A stretch of 64,000 nucleotides of DNA from NCBI RefSeq assembly GCF_050920415.1, contig NZ_CP169309.1, one strand, 5' to 3'. Origin of the DNA: Escherichia coli (GTDB lineage: Bacteria; Pseudomonadota; Gammaproteobacteria; Enterobacterales; Enterobacteriaceae). Below, in pieces: positions 19,326-30,922 of this stretch; the first letter of the stretch is position 1, and each line of letters opens with the position of its first letter. The position numbers and the translations under genes are program-made. The notes beneath the pieces are model-generated. The model did no database searches. It was not told where the DNA came from and saw only the letters and a program-made list of their open reading frames with translations.

Positions 19326-19607
19326 ATGCGATGTGGTTTATTAATGGCAATCTGCCTTTGTTTGGTATCTTTTAGTGGGTATGCAGCAACAGGAAAGTCA
19401 GATGCTCAGATCAAGAAAGAAATAATTAAAGAGTCCATTGAATCTTATCCAGGCAATTGTGCGTGTCCGTATAATCATGCAAGGAATGGTAGTAGATGTG
19501 GTGGACGCAGTGCATATAGCCGTACTGGAGGGTATGACGTGGTATGTTATGAAAGTGATGTTACCGATGAAATGATCCGGCAATGGAAGCAGGAGAATGC
19601 TGAGTAA
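19326..19607 (+). CDS. Small Cys-rich secreted protein (prophage moron, function unknown)
   Basis: Signal-peptide-like N-terminus MRCGLLMAICLCLVSFSGYAA, then a Cys-rich mature region; low-GC islet; start uncertain (ORF track begins 19212). Confidence 0.5.
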   Translation: MRCGLLMAICLCLVSFSGYAATGKSDAQIKKEIIKESIESYPGNCACPYNHARNGSRCGGRSAYSRTGGYDVVCYESDVTDEMIRQWKQENAE

Positions 19608-19680
19608 TCTCTTTTAACTGATTTGTTGTGCGAGCATAATGTGCAGTTAACGGCTCACTAGCTAGTGAGAGTTCCAAAAA

Positions 19681-19717
19681 GAAACCCCGCAGTTTTTACG
19701 CTGCGGGGTTGTTATTC
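19681..19717 (+). terminator. Hairpin terminator after the moron gene
   Basis: AACCCCGCAG-TTTTTACG-CTGCGGGGTT followed by a T-rich stretch. Confidence 0.45.
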
Positions 19718-19993
19718 ATGCCTATGAGATAGGGTGCCTTATCGGCCTTACCCTGGCAACCGATTGACGGGGAGTTGCCTCCCCGTCGCGGTTTCCTTAC
19801 TGCTTACACTGTAAGAACGCCGCAAACTCCGCTCCCCAGAAGCTCATCCGTATTTCACACAGCGAACCGTGCAGCATCCAGATGATGAGGATTACCGTCA
19901 CGCAGAACGTGATGGCCGTAAGCGATTTTTGCGACATAGCGCTTGCTCCTTTGTTGGAGAGGCGCTAACCTATCACTTGCTAGGTTGACGGGT

Positions 19994-20126: not shown

Positions 20127-20387
20127 TTAATTCTGAGGTAAAGGCAAACTCATCTGATTGTTTCCCCTGTGTGAAGCTGGCAGCTCATGCCACGGGATAC
20201 CTTCTGAAGAGTGAACGCCGGAGGCGTGTTTTGATGTGAATTTATGGAAAGCTTCCAGTGTTGAGAAGCATACGCCGCATTCCAGATTGTTACACTGGTA
20301 ATACTTTTGCCGCACGGTGTTTGAATCATTTTCCGGACGACTGGTGCGGATACGGGCAGATGCGCCACAAAGCGGACAACGGAACAT
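20127..20387 (-). CDS. ogr: Ogr/Delta-type zinc-finger late-gene transcriptional activator
   Basis: MFRCPLCG...YYQCNNLECGVCF four-Cys arrangement typical of P2 Ogr; start may be downstream of the ORF-track start. Confidence 0.8.
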   Translation of the reverse strand: MFRCPLCGASARIRTSRPENDSNTVRQKYYQCNNLECGVCFSTLEAFHKFTSKHASGVHSSEGIPWHELPASHRGNNQMSLPLPQN

Positions 20388-20429
20388 AGCGACCTCCCTT
20401 AACGTGGTGCTGCCGCTATTCTAAGTTGC

Positions 20430-21539
20430 TCACTCTGTTTCCGCTATCCATTCCGGGATTTTTGCTTCAAGCTCAAGCTGCGTGGTAAAGCCGCTGTTAT
20501 CAATGGTGTGCTCGGCTTTTGCAATAATCCAGTCCTGATTGTCGATGTCACTTTTGAAGCCTGTCACCGTGCCATGCATTTCGGGATAGAGTTCTGCACG
20601 TCCACGCGCCAGCGTGATGGAGAATGATGCGGCTCCGCGTTGTAGTTGCTGCCACTTTGCCGCCGCTGCGCGTCTTGCTGCCTGCTCGTTCTGATAAGTC
20701 TTGCGTAACACAAACACATTGCCTTCCGCGCCTTCCATATAATCACCTTCACGGCTGCTGCTTTTCTCCTTTTTGGGTTTTGGCGGTTTACGGCGTTTTA
20801 CGCTGACTTTTTTCTTTTTCCCGTAATTAAGATCAAGCCAGTAGGCGCGTACCCCCGTATACGCCTCGCGGTCAGCAATACGGAACTGATGGCGATCGCC
20901 GCTGCTGCGTGTAATGGCGAACGAGGGCAACGGCTGGCCCTGTGCGTTCACGCCACCACCTGGCATGATGAATAACAGATTGCCGCTTTTTACCGTGGTG
21001 ATTGCGCCCAGCATTTCCGCCATGCGCGTAAGGAAGGACATGTCGCTTTCTTCGGTCTGGTCGGCGTGGTCGATTTCAATATCCATCAGCATTTCGCTGA
21101 TTTGCGGTTTCAGGCCGTATCGGTGAGCAATTGCAGACACCACGCGTTCAACGGTCACATCATGCCAGGATACTTCGCGCTTGACGTTAAATTCATCCCG
21201 AAAATCTGCGCTTCTGGCTGAAATGGTCAGTCTGTCGGGCGGTCCTTCATGAGCAATTTCATCAACAATGTAAGTGCCTTTTTCTGTCAGCGGTTCTCCT
21301 TTCCAGCCAATGAGAACCGTCAGGCGCGCGCCCCGTGGCGGTAGCTGCAACTGACCATCTGCATCATCCAGCGTGATGGTGAGCTGGTCCGCCTCAAATC
21401 CCCGGTTGTCGGTCAGTGACAGGCTCATCAGGCGCTCTGCCACGCCTGACAGCGTTTTACCCTCCGCGAGAATATCAAAATCCGGCATTTTCACGGGGTC
21501 TGTGCCCTGACTGAGCAATTGCATGGTGGTGTCGGTCAT
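20430..21539 (-). CDS. Tail protein gpD (late control gene D family)
   Basis: About 369 aa from MTDTTMQLLS; recalled gpD family features; ORF-track N-terminal extension to 21671 judged spurious. Confidence 0.8.
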   Translation of the reverse strand: MTDTTMQLLSQGTDPVKMPDFDILAEGKTLSGVAERLMSLSLTDNRGFEADQLTITLDDADGQLQLPPRGARLTVLIGWKGEPLTEKGTYIVDEIAHEGPPDRLTISARSADFRDEFNVKREVSWHDVTVERVVSAIAHRYGLKPQISEMLMDIEIDHADQTEESDMSFLTRMAEMLGAITTVKSGNLLFIMPGGGVNAQGQPLPSFAITRSSGDRHQFRIADREAYTGVRAYWLDLNYGKKKKVSVKRRKPPKPKKEKSSSREGDYMEGAEGNVFVLRKTYQNEQAARRAAAAKWQQLQRGAASFSITLARGRAELYPEMHGTVTGFKSDIDNQDWIIAKAEHTIDNSGFTTQLELEAKIPEWIAETE

Positions 21540-21696
21540 CTGTTCCCTCCCTGTGCGGCATGGTCGCATGTGCGTGCGGAGGGGGTTACTGCTTTTTGTT
21601 GTCGCCGTGGCGGGAGAACGGCGCAGGGGTGAGATTACGCGCGTGGTGGGTGATGATTGTTGCCGAATCATTTAACGGATACAAGGGGCTGAAGCT

Positions 21697-22881
21697 ATGA
21701 GTGAAACTCGTTTTCATGGTGCCCGTGTTACGGAAAATACCGACCTGGTAACAGCGATTAACGATGTTGATTCCAGCGTTATCGGTATCGTGGCAACGGC
21801 GGATGATGCGGACGCGGAGCTGTTCCCGCTGAACAAGCCCACATTGCTGACCCGCGTCAATGACGTGCTGGGAAAATGCGGAACAACGGGGACGCTTTAT
21901 CGTGCGCTTAAGGCCATCGCAGACCAGGTGAGCACAAAGGTGATCGTCGTTCGCGTGGCTGAACACAAAGAAGAAGACGGAAAAACGCAGGATCAACTGG
22001 TTATCGGTGGTTCTGAATCTGACGGCAGCTATACGGGGATGTATGCGCTGCTTGTTGCAGAGCAGGATGAAAGCATCGGATACCGTCCGCGTATTCTGGC
22101 CGCGCCGGAGCTGGACACGGAGGCGGTGACAAAATCCTTGTGCGTGATTGCGGGTAAACTGCGCGCGTTTGTGTATGCCACATGTCATGGTTGTAACACG
22201 ATGGCTGAGGCGATTACCTACCGCCAGAAATTCAACGAACGTGAGGTGATGCTCTTATGGCCTGACTTCATCGCCTACAACCCGAAAAGTGGCAAAAACG
22301 AAACGTTCCCCGCGCCTGCTTATGCGTGCGGCCTTCGTGCGTACATTGACCATGAGCAGGGCTGGCACAAATCGCTGTCCAACGTTCCGGTTAAAAATGT
22401 GCTGGGAATGTCCAGGCATGTGTTCTGGTCGTTGCAGGCCGAAGACAGTGATGCCAACAGCCTCAACAACAAAGAAATCACGACCATTATTCGTCGCAAC
22501 GGGTTCCGCTTCTGGGGCAACCGCACACCGGAAACGAACGCCTACATCTTTGAGGTGTATACCCGAACCGCACAGGTACTGGCTGATTCAATTGCGGAAG
22601 CGCAGTTTGAAACCATCGACAGTCCACTGACGCCTGCGAACGTGAAGGATGTTATCAGTGCCATCAGGGCAAAACTGGATTCACTGGTTACTGCCGGGAA
22701 ACTGATTGGCGCGTCGTGCTGGTATGACGTGGTGGATAACAGCACCACGGATTTACGTCAGGGGCGTGTGCGTATTCGCTACAAATATACGCCTGTTCCT
22801 CCGCTGGAAGATATGGAGCTTTACCAGACGTTTACTGATGAATACTTTGATCCCGCATTTGCGGTGTTGGGAGGTGTCTGA
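21697..22881 (+). CDS. Contractile tail sheath protein (P2 FI-like)
   Basis: 394 aa with recalled FI motifs (DADAELFPLNKP, KLRAF, QGWHKSLSNV, RRNGFRFWGNRT, YTRTAQV, YKYTPVPPLE). Confidence 0.9.
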   Translation: MSETRFHGARVTENTDLVTAINDVDSSVIGIVATADDADAELFPLNKPTLLTRVNDVLGKCGTTGTLYRALKAIADQVSTKVIVVRVAEHKEEDGKTQDQLVIGGSESDGSYTGMYALLVAEQDESIGYRPRILAAPELDTEAVTKSLCVIAGKLRAFVYATCHGCNTMAEAITYRQKFNEREVMLLWPDFIAYNPKSGKNETFPAPAYACGLRAYIDHEQGWHKSLSNVPVKNVLGMSRHVFWSLQAEDSDANSLNNKEITTIIRRNGFRFWGNRTPETNAYIFEVYTRTAQVLADSIAEAQFETIDSPLTPANVKDVISAIRAKLDSLVTAGKLIGASCWYDVVDNSTTDLRQGRVRIRYKYTPVPPLEDMELYQTFTDEYFDPAFAVLGGV

Positions 22882-23393
22882 TGGCTGTACCAAAACATCT
22901 TCGCTTTTTTACGCTGTTTGTGAATGGTGAAAACGAAGTGGGTAAGGTGACGTCCGTCACTCCACCTAAACTGACGCGCAAAACTGAAAGCTATCGTGGC
23001 GGTGGCATGATGGGGGCGGTGAGTATCGACCTCGGTCTTGATGATTCTGCGCTTGATGCGAGTTTTGTCATGGGGGGCGCAGTTCGTGAGCTGTTCCTTA
23101 AATATGGCGGCACGATTGACAGCACGTTGCTGCGTTTTGCGGGTGAATACTACACCGATGCAGAAAGTGATCTGTATGAAATCGAGATGCGCGGGCGTGT
23201 GACGGAAATTGATATGGGGGAAGCCAAACAGGGCGAAGCCACATCACACACTTACGCTGTCAAAAACACCTACTACAAGCTGAGCGTTAACGATCGTCCG
23301 CTGTGGGAAATCGACCTGCTGAACCACATCTACCGGAAGGACGGCAAGGACATCGTGCCTGATCGCATCCGTTCCGCGCTTGGGCTTGGCTGA
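22881..23393 (+). CDS. Tail tube protein (P2 FII-like)
   Basis: 170 aa ORF immediately after the sheath gene with overlapping stop/start. Confidence 0.85.
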   Translation: MAVPKHLRFFTLFVNGENEVGKVTSVTPPKLTRKTESYRGGGMMGAVSIDLGLDDSALDASFVMGGAVRELFLKYGGTIDSTLLRFAGEYYTDAESDLYEIEMRGRVTEIDMGEAKQGEATSHTYAVKNTYYKLSVNDRPLWEIDLLNHIYRKDGKDIVPDRIRSALGLG

Positions 23394-23449
23394 TAAGTAA
23401 TATGCAGGCGGCGCAGTGCGTCGCCTCTGACTGAAAAAGGAGACAACTG

Positions 23450-23824
23450 ATGCAAAACATCAATACTGAAACCCGGAATAACGCCGTGGCGGATGATGTG
23501 ACGGCAGGTGAGGATATGGCTGTCGAACGTGGCGTAAAACTGGCCCGACCAATTGAGCGCGGTGGCGAAAAAATCACGTATGTGGAAATTACCGGGGCTA
23601 TTGAGCAGGCTGGATCTCTGCGTGGTCTGTCGCTGTCTGATGTGCTGAATCTGAAAGCGGATACCATGTTCACGCTGTTGCCTCGCGTGACCTCGCCACG
23701 ACTGGATGAAGTGATGATTAAAAAAATGTCGTCACGCGATTTTATTCAGTTGTGCGCTGTGGCTGTAAATTTTATGAGCGAGCCAGACTCTGGCGCGAAG
23801 AGCGTGCAGGAGACGGCAGCGTAA
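23450..23824 (+). CDS. Tail assembly chaperone gpE-like
   Basis: Position between tube and tape measure; carries a slippery heptamer near its 3' end. Confidence 0.6.
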   Translation: MQNINTETRNNAVADDVTAGEDMAVERGVKLARPIERGGEKITYVEITGAIEQAGSLRGLSLSDVLNLKADTMFTLLPRVTSPRLDEVMIKKMSSRDFIQLCAVAVNFMSEPDSGAKSVQETAA

Positions 23825-23988
23825 TCACCCTGGTGTGCTTTGAGCACATCGAAGATCTGGTGGCGGATATTGCCGCCATTTTTAACTGGTCGCCCGCCGA
23901 AATCTTCATGATGACGCCCGGCGAAGTGGTTAGCTGGCGTGAGCGGGCGGCACTTCGCAGCGGGAATGCAGACAATGAAGACTCTTGA
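23752..23988 (+). CDS. E' extension frame of the gpE+E' frameshift fusion chaperone
   Basis: -1 frame ORF overlapping the gpE 3' end and the tape-measure 5' end; analogous to P2 E/E' and lambda G/GT. Confidence 0.55.
   Translation: MRCGCKFYERARLWREERAGDGSVITLVCFEHIEDLVADIAAIFNWSPAEIFMMTPGEVVSWRERAALRSGNADNEDS
23767..23773 (+). other. Programmed -1 ribosomal frameshift site (A_AAT_TTT)
   Basis: X_XXY_YYZ heptamer in the gpE zero frame; the -1 frame stays open to 23988 (E' extension). Confidence 0.6.
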
Positions 23989-26776
23989 TATCCGGGTCGC
24001 TTTCAGCGCCGTTGACAGACTGACCCGGCCTGCCGAAAACGCCCGCCGCCTGATGGGGCAGTTTGGTGACTCCATCCAGCGAACGCAGGGGGCGATCAAA
24101 AATCTCGAGCGTCAGGCGCGTTCATTTGAGCGCGCCCGTGACGCTGTCAGTAAAGCGGATGCGAGCATCGTGAAAGCACGACGCCAGCTTAACGCCCTTA
24201 ATCAGTTACAACGCACGGGTACAGTGCTCAGCGAAAAACAACAAAAGCTGATGCAGCAGTTAAGCACCCGGCTTGAACGCCTGAATGAATCGCGCACACG
24301 GGAAATTCAGAAAATGCGGGAGCTTGGCGGAGAGCTGAAACGCCACGGCATTTCCCTGACAGGCAGCGATAACACCATCCAGCAGGCCATCAGACGCACC
24401 GAACAGTACAACAACCAGCTTGAACGCGAACGGCAGACGCTTGCGCGTGTAACGCGGGCGCGTGAGCGGTATTCGCGCGCGCAGGAAACTGCTGGAAAAC
24501 TGAAAACAGGTGGTGCGCTGGCAATTGGTGCGGCAGCGGCTGGCGGCTATGCTGCCGGGCGTTTTTTGCAGCCTGCGATCGGGTTCGGGAAAGAGATGTC
24601 CCGCGTTCAGGCACTGACGCGAATCGACCAGAACAGCCCACAGTTTAAGGCGCTGCGTGAGCAGGCGTTAAAACTTGGCTCTGAAACGCAGTTCACCGCA
24701 GGCGATGCCGCCAGTGGACAGGCATTTCTTGCAATGGCTGGCTTCACACCGCAGGCCATTCAGGCTGCGCTTCCGGGCGTGCTGAGCATGGCAACGGCTG
24801 GCGGCATGGATCTCGGCGAGACGGCGGATATTGGCTCAAATATCCTGACGCAGTTCGGCCTTTCTGCTGACCAGATGGACCGGGTTGGTGACACACTCAC
24901 CGCAGCGTTTACCCGTACCAACACTGACCTTCGCGCACTGGGCGAAACCATGAAATATGCAGGTCCGGTGGCGGGTAAGCTGGGAATATCGCTGGAGCAG
25001 GCCGCAGCGATGGCGGGCGTGCTGGCGAATATGGGTATCAGAGGGAGTGATGCCGGGACGGCAATGCGTGCCAGCCTGGCTCGTCTGGCATCACCGCCAA
25101 AGGCAGCAGCAGAGGCGCTGAAAGAGCTTGGTGTGGCAGTTTCTGACGCGAACGGCAAAATGCGCCCGATGGAGGATGTGCTGGCCGACCTTTATAAAGC
25201 CACCCGCAAATACGGGGAAGTTGACCGGGTATCCTTCTTTAAGGACATCGCCGGGGAAGAGGCTTTCACATCATTTATGGCCCTCGTTGATGCAGCGGGT
25301 GACGGGTCCTTACCCAAACTGAGAAAAGAACTTGAAGGCGCGCGCGGTGAGGCTGAACGCACAGCAAAGGTTATGGCCAACAACCTTGACGGCGATCTGA
25401 AATCACTCGGCAGTGCATGGGAAGGGTTGCGCATCCGCATTGCAGATCTGATTGACGGTCCGCTGCGTTCTGTCACGCAGTGGCTCACGCGTGTGGTATC
25501 AAAGGTGACGGCGCTGGCGCAGGCCCATCCCGCACTGACGCGCCAGCTACTGATAGCAGGCGGTGCGTTGCTGGCAATGACTGCAACGGTTGGCTCGTTG
25601 TCGCTGGCTATTGGTGTGCTTGCTGGTCCGCTGGCAAAACTGCGTCTTGGTTTTTCCCTCCTGACCGGATCAATGAATGCTGTCAGGGTCCTGCCAGCAC
25701 TATGGGGAATGGTGACGGGTTCCGTTTCTTTGCTGGGAGGTGCTATCGGGGCGCTGTTCAGTCCGGTTGGTCTTATCGTGGCTGCGCTTGCCGGAGCTGC
25801 CATTCTTATCTGGAAATATTGGGATCCCATCAGGGCATTTTTTGCCGGGGTGTTCGGCGGGATTATGGAAAGGCTGACCCCGTTGCGCGAAACCTTTGAA
25901 CGGTTTGGCCCTGTTTTTGACGTAATCGGAAGCGGGATCAGCCAGGTGTTTAACTGGTTTAAATCGCTGCTGTCACCGATGGAGTCCAGCAAGGAAACGC
26001 TGGATAAATGTACCAGTGCTGGCGAGATATTCGGTAACGTTCTTGGCGGTGCGTTACAACTTGTTCTGACACCTGCAAAAATGTTGCTGGATACGCTGGC
26101 GTGGATACTTGAAAAGCTCGGTGTGCTTCCGGATGAAGCGGAAAGGGCGCGCAAGAAAATCGAAGACGCACAGCGTGCGGCCATTCTTCAGGACAAGGTT
26201 GCCTTGCTTCAGGGGGACCTGGCGAAAATCAATCCGCCGAAGCCTGTGGAAAATGGCACCGGAGGTGATAAACCCAAAGACAACAAACCGCTCACAGACA
26301 GCAATACCGGTACGCTACGCAGACTCAGCAAGATTGCTGATAACACAGGTAAGCTGGTTGATGAGACGAAAAAACGCATTGGCCCTGGCGATATTGTCTT
26401 TAAGAACCTGCCCCGCGCACTTGCTGTTCGTGGGGAGTGGCAGGAGCGGAAGATTGCGCAGGTCAGTAAGCCTGCTTCCGCAATCAACATCACACCTGTG
26501 GTCCCGACTCCTCTGCCTCCGGCGCTGGTCCCTGTTGTTGCGGCCAGCTCCCGCCCGGTGGCGGAGGCCATACGATCGCCAGTGGCATCAGTTCCTGCAA
26601 CTTCCCGTAACCGGGAGCCTGTTGTCTCCGGATTTGGCGGTGAAATTCATGTTCATCTGCATAACGTTGTTACGCAGAATCCCCGCGAACTGGCGAAACT
26701 GGTCGGTGAAATGGTCAGGGCAGAATTGGAACGACGCGACCGTGCCGGACGTGGCAGTTTTTACGATAAAGATTGA
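23939..26776 (+). CDS. Tail tape measure protein (gpT-like)
   Basis: 945 aa with coiled-coil-rich N-terminal part and Gly/Ala-rich hydrophobic segments; position. Confidence 0.9.
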   Translation: MSGRHFAAGMQTMKTLDIRVAFSAVDRLTRPAENARRLMGQFGDSIQRTQGAIKNLERQARSFERARDAVSKADASIVKARRQLNALNQLQRTGTVLSEKQQKLMQQLSTRLERLNESRTREIQKMRELGGELKRHGISLTGSDNTIQQAIRRTEQYNNQLERERQTLARVTRARERYSRAQETAGKLKTGGALAIGAAAAGGYAAGRFLQPAIGFGKEMSRVQALTRIDQNSPQFKALREQALKLGSETQFTAGDAASGQAFLAMAGFTPQAIQAALPGVLSMATAGGMDLGETADIGSNILTQFGLSADQMDRVGDTLTAAFTRTNTDLRALGETMKYAGPVAGKLGISLEQAAAMAGVLANMGIRGSDAGTAMRASLARLASPPKAAAEALKELGVAVSDANGKMRPMEDVLADLYKATRKYGEVDRVSFFKDIAGEEAFTSFMALVDAAGDGSLPKLRKELEGARGEAERTAKVMANNLDGDLKSLGSAWEGLRIRIADLIDGPLRSVTQWLTRVVSKVTALAQAHPALTRQLLIAGGALLAMTATVGSLSLAIGVLAGPLAKLRLGFSLLTGSMNAVRVLPALWGMVTGSVSLLGGAIGALFSPVGLIVAALAGAAILIWKYWDPIRAFFAGVFGGIMERLTPLRETFERFGPVFDVIGSGISQVFNWFKSLLSPMESSKETLDKCTSAGEIFGNVLGGALQLVLTPAKMLLDTLAWILEKLGVLPDEAERARKKIEDAQRAAILQDKVALLQGDLAKINPPKPVENGTGGDKPKDNKPLTDSNTGTLRRLSKIADNTGKLVDETKKRIGPGDIVFKNLPRALAVRGEWQERKIAQVSKPASAINITPVVPTPLPPALVPVVAASSRPVAEAIRSPVASVPATSRNREPVVSGFGGEIHVHLHNVVTQNPRELAKLVGEMVRAELERRDRAGRGSFYDKD

Positions 26777-26782
26777 GGAGTC

Positions 26783-27277
26783 ATGGCCATGATGATGATC
26801 TACGGCATGTTTGTTTTTGAGCTGCGCACATTGCCGCATCAGCAGTTACAGCAAAACAAAAGCTGGCGGCATGTGAAAAATGAACGCGTTAACCGTTCAG
26901 CAAGCTGGCAGTATATCGGGGCAGGCGATGATCGCATCGTTCTTTCTGGTGTGCTTTATCCTGAAATTACAGGTGGCGAAGTATCGCTTTCGTTGCTGAC
27001 CACGCAGGCATATACAGGACGCCCCTGGCCTCTGATTGATGGTGTCGGGCAGATTTACGGCATGTATGTCCTGACCGGAACGAATACGACCCGCTCCGAG
27101 TTTGATCGCTACGGTAAGGCGAAAAAGATAGAATTTTCACTGACCCTTGAACGCTGTGATGAGGATTTGCGGGAGCGCCTGCAATCCTCATCGTTCAGCG
27201 ATATGCTGTCCGGCTTCAAAGATAAGGTCACATCATCCCTTAACAGCGCGGCCAGCTCCGTTAAAGGGCTGTTTTGA
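26783..27277 (+). CDS. Tail protein gpU-like
   Basis: 164 aa ORF directly after the tape measure. Confidence 0.75.
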   Translation: MAMMMIYGMFVFELRTLPHQQLQQNKSWRHVKNERVNRSASWQYIGAGDDRIVLSGVLYPEITGGEVSLSLLTTQAYTGRPWPLIDGVGQIYGMYVLTGTNTTRSEFDRYGKAKKIEFSLTLERCDEDLRERLQSSSFSDMLSGFKDKVTSSLNSAASSVKGLF

Positions 27278-27284
27278 TTAACGC

Positions 27285-27314
27285 AAAACCGCTAATGGTC
27301 AGATTAGCGGTTTT
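27285..27314. terminator. Bidirectional hairpin terminator between gpU and the invertase
   Basis: Perfect 11-bp stem AAACCGCTAAT/ATTAGCGGTTT with 6-nt loop, between convergent genes. Confidence 0.6.
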
Positions 27315-27903
27315 CATTTTCCTGAGTCTGCCTGGTTGTTTCTTCAGCCTGTATATCGCCTACAGGGTGATAACGATAAATCGTCGATATGCCGATGTCG
27401 TAAATGATCGCCAGTTGTTTCCTGTCATGACCGTTTTTAATCAGCCTCGCTATTTGCTCGTGTTGTTCTTTTGTCAACTTCGGGCGACGTCCGCCAATGC
27501 GCCCCCGTGCGCGCGCTGCCGCCAGCCCGGCCAGTGTACGCTCTACAATTAATTCACGTTCCATTTCGGCTAAAGCCCCCATGACGTGAAAAAAGAAACG
27601 CCCCATGGGTGTTGATGTGTCAATGCTGTCCGTCAGACTACGGAAATTAACACCTTTTTCCCGCAATTCCTCAATAAGCGTGATCAGGTGTTTCATACTT
27701 CTGCCCAGTCTGTCCAGCTTCCAGACAACCAGCGTATCTCCTTCTGATAGCGTTCTGATCAGTTTTTTCAATCCCGGTCTGGCTGATTTCGTTCCGCTGA
27801 TTTTATCTTCAAAAATCAGTTCACATCCTGCGCACTCCAGCGCGTTACGCTGCAATTCTGTATTCTGGTCATTTGTTGATACGCGGACATAGCCAATAAG
27901 CAT
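27304..27903 (-). CDS. Serine-recombinase DNA invertase (Pin/Gin/Cin/Hin family)
   Basis: 199 aa starting MLIGYVRVSTNDQNTELQ; catalytic Ser in the VRVS motif; C-terminal HTH; closely resembles e14 Pin as recalled. Confidence 0.95.
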   Translation of the reverse strand: MLIGYVRVSTNDQNTELQRNALECAGCELIFEDKISGTKSARPGLKKLIRTLSEGDTLVVWKLDRLGRSMKHLITLIEELREKGVNFRSLTDSIDTSTPMGRFFFHVMGALAEMERELIVERTLAGLAAARARGRIGGRRPKLTKEQHEQIARLIKNGHDRKQLAIIYDIGISTIYRYHPVGDIQAEETTRQTQENENR

Positions 27904-27958
27904 GATGGATCCCCTGAATAAAAACCGGGGATGATGCCAGTTAGCCGTAATCTCTGCA

Positions 27959-27984
27959 TTTTCTTAAACGTTGGTTTGGGAGAA
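27959..27984. repeat. Invertase crossover site (gix/hix-like), right-hand copy
   Basis: TTTTCTTAAACG-TT-GGTTTGGGAGAA; the 14-mer 27971..27984 is the inverted repeat of 29777..29790; encodes VGLGE. Confidence 0.6.
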
Positions 27985-28440
27985 GGTGCTCCAGCTATTG
28001 GCGTTCCGTTCTTCTGGCCGTCCGCCGCAATGCCAGATACCGTAATCGAAAGCTGGTCCGGCATGGTGTTTTTGAAGTTCAACGGCGCGAAATTCTCTGC
28101 CACTGATTACCCTGTGCTGGCGAAAGTGTTTCCTTCGCTGGTATTACCTGAAGCCCGCGGTGATTTCATTCGTATCTGGGATGATGGCCGTGGTGTTGAT
28201 AGTGGCCGTGCGTTACTTTCCGCGCAATCAGACGATTTCAAAACGCACGAGCATAAAATTTTAGGGCTAAATGGAAGTGGCAGTAATGTAGTGTTTGGCA
28301 CCGTTTCGAATGCTTCTCCATTATATACCAGCGGCGTTAGTCAGCCGGGTGGAAGTGCTTTGCCCGCTTTTCAAAACCCAGGCGGTACTGAAACGCGTCC
28401 CCGTAACATCGCATTCAACTTTTTAGTAAGGGCTAAATAA
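27985..28440 (+). CDS. Silent alternative tail-fiber C-terminal cassette (Sv'-like)
   Basis: Open frame continuing from the crossover site with no credible own start; would fuse to the fiber constant region after inversion. Confidence 0.55.
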   Translation, partial: GAPAIGVPFFWPSAAMPDTVIESWSGMVFLKFNGAKFSATDYPVLAKVFPSLVLPEARGDFIRIWDDGRGVDSGRALLSAQSDDFKTHEHKILGLNGSGSNVVFGTVSNASPLYTSGVSQPGGSALPAFQNPGGTETRPRNIAFNFLVRAK

Positions 28441-29033
28441 TGAAACCTGTTTTTGATGAAAATGGACTGGCTACAGTGCCGGGTGATATGCGTTGTTTTT
28501 ATTATGATGCAGTAACGTATGAATATACGGGCTGGTCTGATGAATATATTAATACTGGTATAAGTATGCCCGCCTGTTCCACTGGTATTGACCCTGGCGA
28601 AAACATTCCGGGAAAAGTGGCTGTATTTACAGGTAAGGGATGGAGCCATGAAGAGGACCATCGCAATGAGACTGTTTACTCAATCGAAAATGGCGCAGCT
28701 GTTACAGTGGATTATATCGGTGCCATCAAAAACGGTTATGTCACGCTTTCACCGTTAACGCCATATGATAAATGGGATGGTGAGAAATGGGTGACAGATA
28801 CTGAGGCACAACACGGTGCCGCAGTAGAAGCGGCAGAAGCACAGCGTCAGCCACTGATTGATGCTGCAATGGCTTCCATCAGTCTGATTCAGCTGAAATT
28901 ACAGGCCGGGCGGAAGCTGACGCAGGCAGAAACCACCCGGCTTAACGCCGTGCTTGATTACATTGACGCGGTGACGGCAACAGATACGAGCACCGCTCCG
29001 GATGTCATCTGGCCTGAACTGCCGGAGGCGTAG
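28440..29033 (+). CDS. Tail fiber assembly protein, alternative copy (U'/tfa')
   Basis: 197 aa with C-terminal motif TSTAPDVIWPELP shared with the convergent tfa gene. Confidence 0.8.
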   Translation: MKPVFDENGLATVPGDMRCFYYDAVTYEYTGWSDEYINTGISMPACSTGIDPGENIPGKVAVFTGKGWSHEEDHRNETVYSIENGAAVTVDYIGAIKNGYVTLSPLTPYDKWDGEKWVTDTEAQHGAAVEAAEAQRQPLIDAAMASISLIQLKLQAGRKLTQAETTRLNAVLDYIDAVTATDTSTAPDVIWPELPEA

Positions 29034-29439
29034 GCCATTCAATATCTGGAGCACTGGAGGTATCAACCAGTTCCAGTGCGTCCAGATAATCCAGCCACAA
29101 ATTATATTGCGCCAGTTCCTCACCTTTCAGACGACCAATAGCCGCTTTACCAGGCCATTGCTTGGTATTCATATATTCGTTGGACTGATTAATCAATTGC
29201 TGTTTTTTCAATTCGGCTGCGGCAATCTGTTCCTCATGTGTTGGTGGTGGAATTTCAGACCATGCAGGAAAACCATTTTCCTCAGCGATACGGATTTTTC
29301 CTTTCGGCGGTAATCCGGAAAACTCAATATACACCTGCTCATCAACTTCAACAGCATCATCTGGCCATGAATTTACATTGATGTAGTCATCCTTAAGCGC
29401 AGGATTCACAAAAATATTTAAAGATGGACTAAAAAACAC
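29005..29439 (-). CDS. Tail fiber assembly protein (gpG/Tfa-like)
   Basis: 144 aa directly downstream of the fiber gene; 3' end overlaps the alternative copy convergently. Confidence 0.8.
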   Translation of the reverse strand: MFFSPSLNIFVNPALKDDYINVNSWPDDAVEVDEQVYIEFSGLPPKGKIRIAEENGFPAWSEIPPPTHEEQIAAAELKKQQLINQSNEYMNTKQWPGKAAIGRLKGEELAQYNLWLDYLDALELVDTSSAPDIEWPTPPAVQAR

Positions 29440-29440
29440 A

Positions 29441-30922
29441 TCACCCTCCTATAGCAACATAACAGCCCGATACAGGATTTGCGGCAGTCGCTACGCTGGA
29501 AAAACCACGAAAGCCGCTTTTTGTGATTGCGGAGGCAGATAGTATTCCGGCACCCGAAGGTGTATGCCCCACGTGGCTGGCAACCATCACGTAGCACGCC
29601 GACGGAAAAGCGAAAGGGAAATTGTTTAAATATCCCGCATCATCCCCCAGACTTCCCCCAAACTGCCCCACTCCCCACTGGATAATAAGTGGTCTCCGAA
29701 CGCCAGAAATAATTAATGGAATTGCTACATACCCATTCACCAACATAGCGCCGGTTGTTGCGCCAGCCAGAGCCAATTCCCCCAAACCAAGGTAATCAAG
29801 AACTCCCTGAGTGCTGGTTTTACCAAGAATGGCACGTCCAACACTTGTCAACGCGGTTAACGCGGCACGATCTGCCCCTGTAAAATATGGGAGTTTATCT
29901 GCTGATGTAGCAAGCTCCGCCAGCGCCGTCAGGGTGGCATCCTTCGGTTGCTTACCCGCAAGCGCGTTAGTCATGGTGGTCGCAAAATTCGGGTCATTGC
30001 CCAGCGCCGCAGCCAGTTCGTTCAGCGTGTTCAGTGCATCAGGTGACGAATCTACAAGTGCGGCAATCGCGGCCATAACGAAAGCCGTGCTTGCGATCTG
30101 GGTACTATTAGTCCCCTGTGGCGCTGTTGGTGTTGTTGGCGTTCCGGTCAGTGCCGGGCTGTTTAATGGTGCTTTCTTGCTCGTTTCATCCATTACCGCC
30201 TTAACAGCTTTTGGTGTCGCTGCCAGCGTTTCAGACGTGCTGTTCGTGGCGCTACTGAGCTGAACAATCCCTTTTTGTGTAGTGGTGGCGTTCTGGGCGG
30301 TATATTTCCCGTTAGCCAGGTCATATGCAGCCTTAACCGCTTTCGGTGTTGCGGCCAGTGTTTCTGATTCACTGTTAATTGCACTGCTTAACTGAGTAAA
30401 ACCTTTTACGGTCAGCGAGGCGTCCGGGTGACGTCGTGACTGTTCGTGCTCTGATATTTTATCATCCACATATTTGCGGGTTGCCAGAACCACAGACGGG
30501 TCGATTTTCAGCGTGATGGCTTCGGTGTTCGTGACAACCAGAATCATGCGGATAGTCTGGGTGCGTCCACTGCCTTCCTGCAACTGCGGTTTGTACGTTT
30601 CCGGGCAGTTTGCCACCGCAATGAGTACACCTTCATCATCATAAAGCCCAATCTCACGGATCCAGAATCCTCCCTCGTTTTCAGGGATGATTTGCTCCGC
30701 AATAATCTGGCTCTGATTGTTAGGGTCAACACTCAGAAGATTCAGCGGTGCAATGCGTTTCTGGTTAATCAGTTTTGTTTGTGCAGGGTCTGGTGTTGGT
30801 AACACACCATTTGCATCACCAACGGCCATTTGCGTCAGATTCAGCTTACTGCCGAGCATCGTCGCGTTAGCCAGTCGTGCCGCGCCCTGATTAGTCAGAA
30901 TGGCGTAGTATTTCACTGTCAT
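29441..30922 (-). CDS. Tail fiber protein (gpH-like), currently expressed variant
   Basis: 493 aa with conserved N-terminal region and repeat-rich shaft; C-terminal ~110 aa lie inside the invertible segment. Confidence 0.85.
   Translation of the reverse strand: MTVKYYAILTNQGAARLANATMLGSKLNLTQMAVGDANGVLPTPDPAQTKLINQKRIAPLNLLSVDPNNQSQIIAEQIIPENEGGFWIREIGLYDDEGVLIAVANCPETYKPQLQEGSGRTQTIRMILVVTNTEAITLKIDPSVVLATRKYVDDKISEHEQSRRHPDASLTVKGFTQLSSAINSESETLAATPKAVKAAYDLANGKYTAQNATTTQKGIVQLSSATNSTSETLAATPKAVKAVMDETSKKAPLNSPALTGTPTTPTAPQGTNSTQIASTAFVMAAIAALVDSSPDALNTLNELAAALGNDPNFATTMTNALAGKQPKDATLTALAELATSADKLPYFTGADRAALTALTSVGRAILGKTSTQGVLDYLGLGELALAGATTGAMLVNGYVAIPLIISGVRRPLIIQWGVGQFGGSLGDDAGYLNNFPFAFPSACYVMVASHVGHTPSGAGILSASAITKSGFRGFSSVATAANPVSGCYVAIGG
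29777..29802. repeat. Invertase crossover site (gix/hix-like), left-hand copy
   Basis: TTCCCCCAAACC-AA-GGTAATCAAGAA inside the fiber gene; encodes LGLGE on the minus strand. Confidence 0.6.

What the first reader, a model, noticed from the sequence alone, without database searches (positions are those of the whole stretch)
23450..23988. Conserved programmed -1 frameshift (A_AAT_TTT) producing the gpE+E' tail chaperone fusion
A canonical X_XXY_YYZ heptamer lies in the gpE zero frame at 23767..23773, and the -1 frame is open from there to 23988, overlapping the tape-measure start. This matches the P2 E/E' and lambda G/GT paradigm and supports a functional tail-assembly module despite the module's unusual orientation.
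Basis: partly seen in the sequence, partly recalled or inferred. Interest (0 to 1): 0.35.

Follow-up and report, generated by a model that had tools for sequence, protein, structure and literature searches.

The report
Phage tail-chaperone programmed frameshift site
This is the ordinary ribosomal frameshift signal that P2-type phages use to make a short and a long tail-assembly chaperone from one gene, here in a common E. coli P88-like prophage, where the slippery site sits one codon upstream of the phage P2 site.

Summary
Gene E (23450..23824, +) reads GTA AAT TTT ATG at codons 106-109, so A_AAT_TTT (23767..23773) is in the X_XXY_YYZ phase. The -1 frame is open from 23722 to 23988, carries the Pfam GpE (E') domain and overlaps the tape-measure start at 23975.

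One heptamer in this 34-codon overlap is expected by chance about 12% of the time. The comparative evidence decides it:
- The Phe codon aligns with the Phe of the P2 site T_TTT_TTG.
- All 175 distinct E/E' regions sampled keep a slippery heptamer on that codon: T_TTT_TTN only 91, X_XXT_TTY only 56, both 28.
- The codon-position variability pattern switches from the E frame to the -1 frame at the site.
- The predicted 179-aa fusion aligns end to end with P2 E+E' (E = 2e-28).

The window's lineage lost the P2-type heptamer (TTG to ATG) and keeps only A_AAT_TTT. No conserved stimulatory structure was found, as reported for P2.

The "unusual orientation" is the normal layout of Xuanwuvirus (P88-like) phages. 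Public records annotate E and E' as separate genes.

Verdict: real, un-annotated, a new member of a well-known kind. Interest is low. No fusion product has been shown experimentally.

The parts
23437..23442 (+). Shine-Dalgarno AAGGAG, 7 nt before the ATG of gene E
   Evidence: read from the sequence
23450..23824 (+). gene E: tail assembly chaperone, 124 aa, zero frame
   Evidence: ORF. Pfam PF10109 Phage_TAC_7 at 21.3 bits, below the cut-off of 25. PHROG 103 'tail protein', E = 3.5e-33. 33% identity to P2 gpE. Lies between the tube gene (22881..23393) and the tape-measure gene.
23767..23773 (+). slippery heptamer A_AAT_TTT (P site AAT Asn107, A site TTT Phe108)
   Evidence: Phase checked. Invariant in 47 distinct close relatives. 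The Phe codon is homologous to the Phe of P2 T_TTT_TTG. A heptamer is retained on this codon in 175 of 175 distinct relatives.
23773..23988 (+). E' extension read in the -1 frame after the slip (71 codons plus TGA); predicted fusion E+E' = 108 + 71 = 179 aa
   Evidence: Translation. Third-position variability follows this frame. The fusion aligns end to end with P2 E+E', E = 2e-28. PHROG 1756 covers fusion residues 104-177.
23860..23967 (+). Pfam PF06528 Phage_P2_GpE domain within E'
   Evidence: 46.3 bits, residues 47-82 of the translation of 23722..23985
23975..26776 (+). tape-measure gene T; its start overlaps the end of E' by 14 nt
   Evidence: PF10145, E = 1.2e-58; start as annotated in relatives
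23788..23812 (+). local hairpin (9 bp, -11.8 kcal/mol); a candidate stimulator, not supported
   Evidence: z = -2.7 when folded alone, but the 62-nt context gives z = -0.2. It starts 14 nt after the heptamer. It is absent in P88 and L087. No conserved pairs in 21 relatives.
23719..23726 (+). T_AAA_AAA(A) run at the first codons of the open -1 frame; alternative slip site, rejected
   Evidence: In P88-type relatives the -1 frame is still closed at this position. A slip here would replace the conserved residues 93-108 of gpE.

Best explanation
Gene E of a P88-like (Xuanwuvirus, P2 family) prophage encodes the tail assembly chaperone. Most ribosomes terminate at TAA 23822-23824 and make the 124-aa gpE.

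A minority slip back one base when tRNA-Asn sits on AAT (P site) and tRNA-Phe on TTT (A site) of A_AAT_TTT. The two tRNAs re-pair with AAA and TTT. Translation then continues with TAT (23773-23775) in the -1 frame to TGA 23986-23988. The product is a 179-aa fusion, E+E' (...AVAVNF-YERARLW...), that carries the GpE/E' domain.

By analogy with P2 E/E+E' and lambda G/GT, both proteins act together on the tape-measure protein (encoded by the next gene) during tail assembly, and the slip rate fixes their ratio.

Shown here: the phase of the heptamer, the open -1 frame, the homology, conservation of a slip site at this codon, and coding constraint on the -1 frame starting at the site.

Inferred: that slipping happens, its rate, the tRNA details, and the protein function.
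For: - Phase and frames.
- Domains: PF06528 in the -1 frame; weak PF10109 in frame 0; tube upstream; tape measure and gpU downstream. PHROG 103 and PHROG 1756 both hit the fusion.
- Fusion homology: the fusion aligns with P2 E+E' over 153 residues, E = 2e-28. N107-F108-M109 aligns with P2 G83-F84-L85, and the P2 record marks the -1 frameshift there.
- Site retention: all 175 distinct E/E' regions from 250 loci keep an in-phase heptamer on the Phe codon. The forms interconvert: A_AAT_TTT 39, C_CCT_TTC 17, T_TTT_TTN 91, both overlapping 28. Two separate groups, E. coli and Klebsiella, rely on X_XXT_TTY alone.
- Close relatives: variable sites fall on frame-0 third positions in E (35/68 against 10/69 and 9/69, p = 5e-8) and on -1-frame third positions in E' (15/47 against 3/47 and 6/47, p = 0.003).
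- 102 distinct sequences of the clade sharing this longer E-E' overlap: the peak of positional entropy moves from frame-0 position 3 (1.19) before the site to -1-frame position 3 (0.95) directly after it.
- Measured shiftiness: A_AAU_UUU belongs to the H_HH.U_UU.Y class, listed among the most efficient motifs in E. coli. It gave 11.4% with the IS3 pseudoknot, and it is strongly avoided in phase in E. coli genes (z = -9.1) (PMC4066793).
Against: - No experiment exists on this phage group.
- Without a stimulator, A_AAU_UUU gave 0.070% in the reporter, at background (0.055%) (PMC4066793 Table S3).
- No conserved stimulator was found: z-scores of -0.2 to -1.45, 0 conserved pairs, and I saw no Shine-Dalgarno-like sequence in the 17 nt upstream.
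- One heptamer in the overlap has a chance expectation of about 0.12.
- Two of about 86 close relatives have a truncated E' frame. These may be decaying prophages or assembly errors.
- The related sequences are not independent samples.
Confidence: 0.85

Rival explanations
1. E' is made as a separate 51-aa protein from GTG 23833, as public records annotate it. This would happen either by independent initiation or by re-initiation after the E stop 9 nt upstream, with no frameshift.
For: RefSeq and GenBank records list a separate 'tail protein' or 'GpE family phage tail protein' CDS at the equivalent position. The E stop codon lies close to this GTG.
Against: - No Shine-Dalgarno sequence precedes GTG 23833 (GTAATCACCCTG).
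- The start codon is not conserved: the Klebsiella and Enterobacter relatives have GTT GCG and CTG CGG there, and their records annotate no separate E'.
- The -1 frame shows coding-type constraint from the slip site onward, upstream of that GTG.
- The linker motif ER.GDG in the -1 frame is conserved.
- PHROG 1756 matches from fusion residue 104.
- P2 E' is reported to lack a ribosome binding site and is expressed as E+E' (PMC3931495).
Confidence: 0.06
2. The shift happens elsewhere. One option is T_AAA_AAA at 23719..23725, by ribosomal slippage or by transcriptional slippage on the A7 run. Another is a slip of tRNA-Phe alone on the T_TTT tetramer.
For: The -1 frame opens exactly at 23722, inside the A7 run. 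A-rich runs are shifty in E. coli, and AAAAAAA is avoided in all phases. U_UUU tetramers shift measurably with a stimulator (0.8%), and T_TTY on the Phe codon is common to all relatives.
Against: - In P88-type relatives the -1 frame is closed at the A-run position.
- A shift there would replace the conserved SSRDFIQLCAVAVNF stretch.
- The A7 run is in the phase AAA_AAA_A, not X_XXY_YYZ.
- The tetramer option uses the same site and gives the same product, so it refines the main explanation rather than competing with it. Retention of full heptamers in 175 of 175 argues that the P-site codon matters.
Confidence: 0.05
3. There is no functional recoding. The heptamer is a chance or protein-driven feature (the N-F dipeptide), and E' is a decaying remnant in a defective prophage.
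For: Chance expectation of 0.12 for one heptamer. Background-level shiftiness without a stimulator. Two relatives have truncated E'.
Against: - Synonymous codons (AAC, TTC, GTN) would keep the protein but are never used in a way that removes every heptamer.
- E' shows purifying selection in its own frame.
- The same arrangement is present in isolated phages of the group: P88, Chuche, Shae_phiSM.
- The window's prophage is colinear with them.
Confidence: 0.03

Closest known systems
Phage P2 E / E+E' frameshift in the FETUD tail operon (Christie et al. 2002, J Bacteriol 184:6522; not held in the library, cited through PMC3091744, PMC3931495 and the NC_001895 record)
   Same: Homologous proteins (33% identity, E = 2e-28). 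Same gene position between tube and tape measure. Same -1 direction. The same Phe codon is involved. E' lacks its own ribosome binding site and overlaps the start of T. No downstream structure is reported for P2, and none is conserved here.
   Different: - Heptamer: A_AAT_TTT (Asn/Phe in the P/A sites) instead of T_TTT_TTG (Phe/Leu), one codon upstream.
- Overlap between slip site and E stop: 51 nt instead of about 20.
- The fusion linker is 10 aa longer, and gpE has a 22-aa N-terminal extension.
- Operon: gene D is split off onto the other strand.
Phage lambda G / GT frameshift and the conserved tail-chaperone frameshift of long-tailed phages (Levin et al. 1993; Xu, Hendrix, Duda 2004, 2013, 2014; summarised in PMC5009743)
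   Same: Two proteins share an N-terminus and are made in a fixed ratio by a -1 slip near the end of the gene that precedes the tape-measure gene. Neither product is in the virion.
   Different: No sequence similarity was tested or expected. Lambda uses G_GGA_AAG. P2-type efficiency is reported as 2- to 3-fold higher than lambda's. The efficiency here is unknown.
Phage P88 and other Xuanwuvirus / Gemsvirus genomes (NC_026014, NC_049391, NC_049343, PP925824, OR565851)
   Same: 83-98% DNA identity over this region and the same gene layout.
   Different: P88, 500465-2 and Chuche carry AAATTTTTTG, which holds both overlapping heptamers. The window, P88_4B11 and Shae_phiSM carry AAATTTTATG, which holds the upstream heptamer only. 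None of these records annotates a frameshift.

Membership tests
P2-type E/E+E' tail assembly chaperone pair | Gene lies between the tail tube gene and the tape-measure gene | tested here: met
   Tube PF04985 at 22881..23393, E at 23450..23824, tape measure PF10145 from 23975
P2-type E/E+E' tail assembly chaperone pair | Sequence homology of the frame-0 product to gpE | tested here: met
   33% identity to P2 gpE in alignment A3. BLASTP of the fusions gives E = 2e-28. PHROG 103 E = 3.5e-33. Pfam PF10109 reaches only 21.3 bits against a cut-off of 25. No NCBIfam model matched.
P2-type E/E+E' tail assembly chaperone pair | The -1 frame extension carries the GpE (E') domain | tested here: met
   PF06528 at 46.3 bits against a cut-off of 23; PHROG 1756 E = 1.8e-38
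P2-type E/E+E' tail assembly chaperone pair | In-phase slippery heptamer near the 3' end of E, within the stretch where both frames are open | tested here: met
   A_AAT_TTT at 23767..23773; a heptamer on the homologous Phe codon in 175 of 175 distinct relatives
P2-type E/E+E' tail assembly chaperone pair | The specific P2 slippery sequence T_TTT_TTG (T6G) | tested here: not met
   The window has TTT ATG, not TTT TTG. The overlapping A_AAT_TTT takes its place. The same loss occurs in Klebsiella phages, which have C_CCT_TTC.
P2-type E/E+E' tail assembly chaperone pair | E' has no ribosome binding site of its own and ends overlapping the start of T | tested here: met
   No Shine-Dalgarno sequence before GTG 23752 or GTG 23833; E' stop at 23986-23988 against T start at 23975
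P2-type E/E+E' tail assembly chaperone pair | The fusion protein is actually produced and is essential for tail assembly | not testable with these tools
   Needs proteomics, a reporter or genetics. The only indirect support is purifying selection in the -1 frame beginning at the site.
Stimulated -1 frameshift signals (IS911, IS3, dnaX type) | Downstream hairpin or pseudoknot 5-9 nt after the heptamer, or an upstream Shine-Dalgarno-like sequence | tested here: inconclusive
   - Fold z-scores of -0.2 to -1.45.
- RNAalifold finds 0 conserved pairs.
- The compact hairpin 23788..23812 (z = -2.7) starts 14 nt away and is lineage-specific.
- A weaker extended stem could begin 4 nt after the heptamer.
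- I saw no Shine-Dalgarno-like sequence in 23750..23766.

The most novel reading that the evidence does not exclude
The E family may carry a two-register slip site. The ancestral form would be a decamer, X_XXT_TTT_TTG, holding two overlapping heptamers. Lineages can lose either one.

The window's lineage (A_AAT_TTT ATG) and Klebsiella Reipivirus (C_CCT_TTC TTG) have moved to the upstream register. That register uses motifs that respond far more strongly to stimulators in E. coli reporters: 11-23% against 0.8% with a pseudoknot.

If these lineages also evolved lineage-specific downstream hairpins (window -18.9 kcal/mol starting 4 nt after the site; Klebsiella a 7-bp stem after 5 nt), then the E: E+E' ratio would be set by a different mechanism than in P2. 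This would be a natural case of slip-site and stimulator co-evolution.
Probability: 0.2. Interest if true: 0.35.

Novelty: new member of a known kind. Interest (0 to 1): 0.18.

Why it matters
The matter is mainly annotation. This prophage type sits in about a quarter of complete E. coli genomes (1373 of 5426). Every public record examined splits E and E' into two genes or omits E', and none models the fusion, which is probably essential.

A smaller point concerns the P2 family. It does not depend on T6G. Two groups rely on an X_XXU_UUY heptamer one codon upstream. That gives a natural comparison for how slip-site identity sets the ratio of the two chaperone forms.

Tried and rejected
- **Downstream stimulatory structure.** Single-sequence folds of 62, 97 and 141 nt were not better than shuffles. 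The consensus fold of 21 diverse relatives gave no pairs. Comparing 50-nt folding energies by slip-site type showed no clean association: the T_TTT_TTG-only group in the same clade is equally stable.
- **Alternative slip site at the A7 run (23720..23726).** Rejected on phase and on closure of the -1 frame in relatives.
- **Solved structures by sequence.** Nothing below E = 0.3.
- **NCBIfam.** No model matched.
- **Primary P2 paper (Christie 2002).** Not held in the library, so P2 facts are cited through the GenBank record and secondary papers.
- **Literature on a Xuanwuvirus frameshift.** None found.
- **Locus searches.** Searches with mixed gpE alignments that included P2 failed for lack of a conserved stretch. 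E' alignments worked instead.
- **Not done.** No structure prediction was run; it would not bear on whether slipping occurs.

Full report
**What is in the sequence**

The stretch 23765-23776 reads GTA AAT TTT ATG. These are codons V106, N107, F108 and M109 of an ORF that runs from ATG 23450 to TAA 23822-23824. An AAGGAG at 23437-23442 precedes the ATG.

The -1 frame has a TAA at 23719-23721. It is then open for 88 codons, to TGA 23986-23988. It overlaps the tape-measure ORF, whose start relatives annotate at the equivalent of 23975.

**Is it more than chance?**

In long ORFs of this window, in-phase X_XXY_YYZ heptamers occur at 0.36% of codons. One in the 34-codon overlap is therefore expected about 12% of the time. 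The locus alone does not prove anything; the case rests on comparison.

**What the genes are**

| Feature | Coordinates | Evidence |
|---|---|---|
| Tail sheath | 21697..22881 | Pfam sheath domains (PF04984, PF22671, PF17482) |
| Tail tube | 22881..23393 | PF04985, E = 8e-46 |
| Gene E | 23450..23824 | PF10109 tail-chaperone family, 21.3 bits, just under the cut-off of 25 |
| -1 frame extension (E') | 23722..23988 open | PF06528 'Phage P2 GpE', 46 bits |
| Tape measure | from 23975 | PF10145, E = 1e-58 |
| gpU | 26783..27277 | PF06995 |

The DNA is 98% identical to phage P88_4B11 and Citrobacter phage Shae_phiSM. It is 83-85% identical to P88, 500465-2 and Chuche.

The window's prophage is colinear with these phages from about 19.7 kb onward.

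The region occurs in 1373 of 5426 complete E. coli genomes. There, as in the phage records, E and E' are annotated as separate genes and no frameshift is modelled.

**Relation to the P2 site**

The P2 record marks the -1 frameshift in GGT TTT TTG, that is T_TTT_TTG. Secondary papers state that P2 shifts at TTTTTTG and has no downstream structure (PMC3091744; PMC3931495).

In a protein alignment, window N107-F108-M109 falls on P2 G83-F84-L85, and the Phe is invariant. The predicted 179-aa fusion is residues 1-108 plus 71 residues from the -1 frame. It aligns end to end with P2 E+E': E = 2e-28, 33% identity, with a 10-residue longer linker. PHROG families 103 and 1756 cover the two halves.

The window does not have the P2 heptamer. 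The Leu codon TTG is ATG here, so T_TTT_TTG is lost and only the overlapping A_AAT_TTT, one codon upstream, remains. P88 proper has AAATTTTTTG, which contains both.

**Conservation**

I collected 250 loci. They gave 175 distinct E/E' regions, and every one has an in-phase slippery heptamer on the invariant Phe codon:

| Site type | Distinct regions |
|---|---|
| T_TTT_TTG, T_TTT_TTC or T_TTT_TTA only | 91 |
| A_AAT_TTT only | 39 |
| C_CCT_TTC only (Klebsiella phages) | 17 |
| Two overlapping heptamers | 28 |

- Variants exist in which the upstream heptamer is broken and the downstream one kept, for example GTT AAT TTT TTG and ACG CCT TTT TTG.
- One variant with a P88-type background carries ATG (L087).
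- The third-position bases needed for slipperiness change between lineages, but never so that both heptamers are lost.
- Within the window's own clade the seven bases are invariant in 47 distinct sequences, while neighbouring third positions vary.
- Two of about 86 close relatives have a truncated E' frame.

**Is the -1 frame translated from the site?**

Close relatives:
- Variable sites in E fall on frame-0 third positions: 35/68 against 10/69 and 9/69 (p = 5e-8).
- Variable sites in the E'-only part fall on -1-frame third positions: 15/47 against 3/47 and 6/47 (p = 0.003).

In 102 distinct sequences of the clade with the longer E-E' overlap, mean entropy peaks as follows:

| Region | Peak position | Mean entropy |
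|---|---|---|
| Upstream of the site | frame-0 position 3 | 1.19 |
| 42 nt of the overlap after the site | -1-frame position 3 | 0.95 |
| E'-only part | -1-frame position 3 | 0.86 |

The switch of coding signal at the slip site, upstream of the GTG 23833 that public records use as the E' start, argues for the fusion. It argues against a separately initiated E'. That GTG also has no Shine-Dalgarno sequence and is not conserved in the Klebsiella and Enterobacter relatives.

These sequences are related, so the counts are not independent events.

**Can A_AAU_UUU slip?**

Sharma et al. 2014 (PMC4066793) measured all 64 heptamers in E. coli:

| Heptamer | No stimulator | IS911 stimulators | IS3 pseudoknot |
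|---|---|---|---|
| A_AAU_UUU | 0.070% | 0.36% | 11.4% |
| U_UUU_UUG (the P2 motif) | 0.118% | 0.25% | 0.77% |

Background without a stimulator was 0.055%. The authors list the H_HH.U_UU.Y class, which includes A_AAU_UUU, among the most efficient motifs. A_AAU_UUU is strongly avoided in this phase in E. coli genes (z = -9.1).

So the motif is competent but depends on a stimulator in reporters. P2-type frameshifting in its native context is reported as 2- to 3-fold more efficient than lambda's (PMC5009743), even though U_UUU_UUG is a weak motif in these reporters. Reporter values therefore need not predict native rates.

**Stimulators**

- Folds of 62-141 nt downstream are not better than shuffles (z = -0.2 to -1.45).
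- RNAalifold on 21 diverse relatives finds no conserved pair.
- A compact hairpin at 23788..23812 stands out when folded alone (-11.8 kcal/mol, z = -2.7). It starts 14 nt after the heptamer, and it is absent from P88 and from L087, which also relies on A_AAT_TTT alone.
- I saw no Shine-Dalgarno-like sequence in the 17 nt upstream.

The efficiency and any stimulator remain open.

**Rivals**

1. *Separate initiation or re-initiation of E'.* This is the public annotation. It is unlikely for the reasons given above.
2. *A slip or transcriptional slippage at the A7 run (23720..23726).* Unlikely: the phase is wrong, the -1 frame is closed there in P88-type relatives, and a slip there would replace a conserved part of gpE.
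3. *A chance heptamer in a decaying prophage.* This is contradicted by selection in the E' frame and by the same arrangement in isolated phages.

**Verdict**

- the slip register differs from P2 by one codon;
- the orientation is normal for the genus;
- there is no evidence for a conserved stimulatory structure.

This is a new, un-annotated member of a well-known recoding class, and interest is low. The only mildly new point is that the family tolerates either of two overlapping heptamers, and that two groups use the upstream one alone.

Noticed in passing
window 23858..23888: A terminator-like element lies inside the E' coding sequence: a 9-bp GC-rich stem (TGGTGGCGG ATA TTGCCGCCA) followed by TTTTT. 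It encodes the conserved VADIAAIF motif and sits about 100 nt before the tape-measure start. It could attenuate transcription into T, or it could be a by-product of the peptide sequence.
   Followed up: no
window 23406..23426; L090 1875..1926 (P2): A stable hairpin lies in the intergenic gap between the tube gene and gene E (-15.9 kcal/mol for the 56-nt gap, z = -1.7). P2 has a different but also stable hairpin in the same gap (-18.8 kcal/mol, z = -2.5). It may be an mRNA processing or stability element, or an attenuator separating the abundant sheath and tube genes from the chaperone genes.
   Followed up: partly
window 20128..21696: Gene D (about 20431..21540 by homology with the annotated relative) and an Ogr-type zinc-finger regulator (20127..20387) are on the minus strand. 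They face the sheath gene (start 21697) across an intergenic region of about 156 bp, which must hold divergent late promoters. In P2, D is the last gene of the same operon as FI-U. The split is shared by all P88-like phages seen.
   Followed up: partly
window 27304..30922: A serine DNA invertase (27304..27903, minus strand; PF00239 plus HTH_7) lies next to oppositely oriented tail-fibre and fibre-assembly ORFs (27931..28440 +, 28440..29033 +, 29005..29439 -, 29441..30922 -). This looks like an invertible host-range cassette of the Mu G / P1 C type. The inverted repeats were not looked for.
   Followed up: no
window about 19676..19940: The left limit of similarity to P88-like phages falls near 19.7 kb. 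Relatives annotate a hok/gef-type 'MokW-like host killing' gene at the equivalent of about 19797..19937.
   Followed up: no
window 23516: Met23 of gpE (ATG 23516) aligns with Met1 of P2 gpE. The 22-residue N-terminal extension is variable among P88-like phages. An AGGTGAGG lies just upstream, but only 2 nt from that ATG, so the annotated start at 23450 with its AAGGAG remains the better candidate.
   Followed up: partly
L090 1931..2358 (P2, NC_001895 19430..19857): The P2 RefSeq join (19430..19685, 19685..19857) re-reads T19685 and so gives ...GFL-F-AELG. A slip on T_TTT_TTG as usually modelled would re-read G19684 and give ...GFL-V-AELG. The junction residue in the record may be a modelling convention rather than a measured one.
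   Followed up: partly
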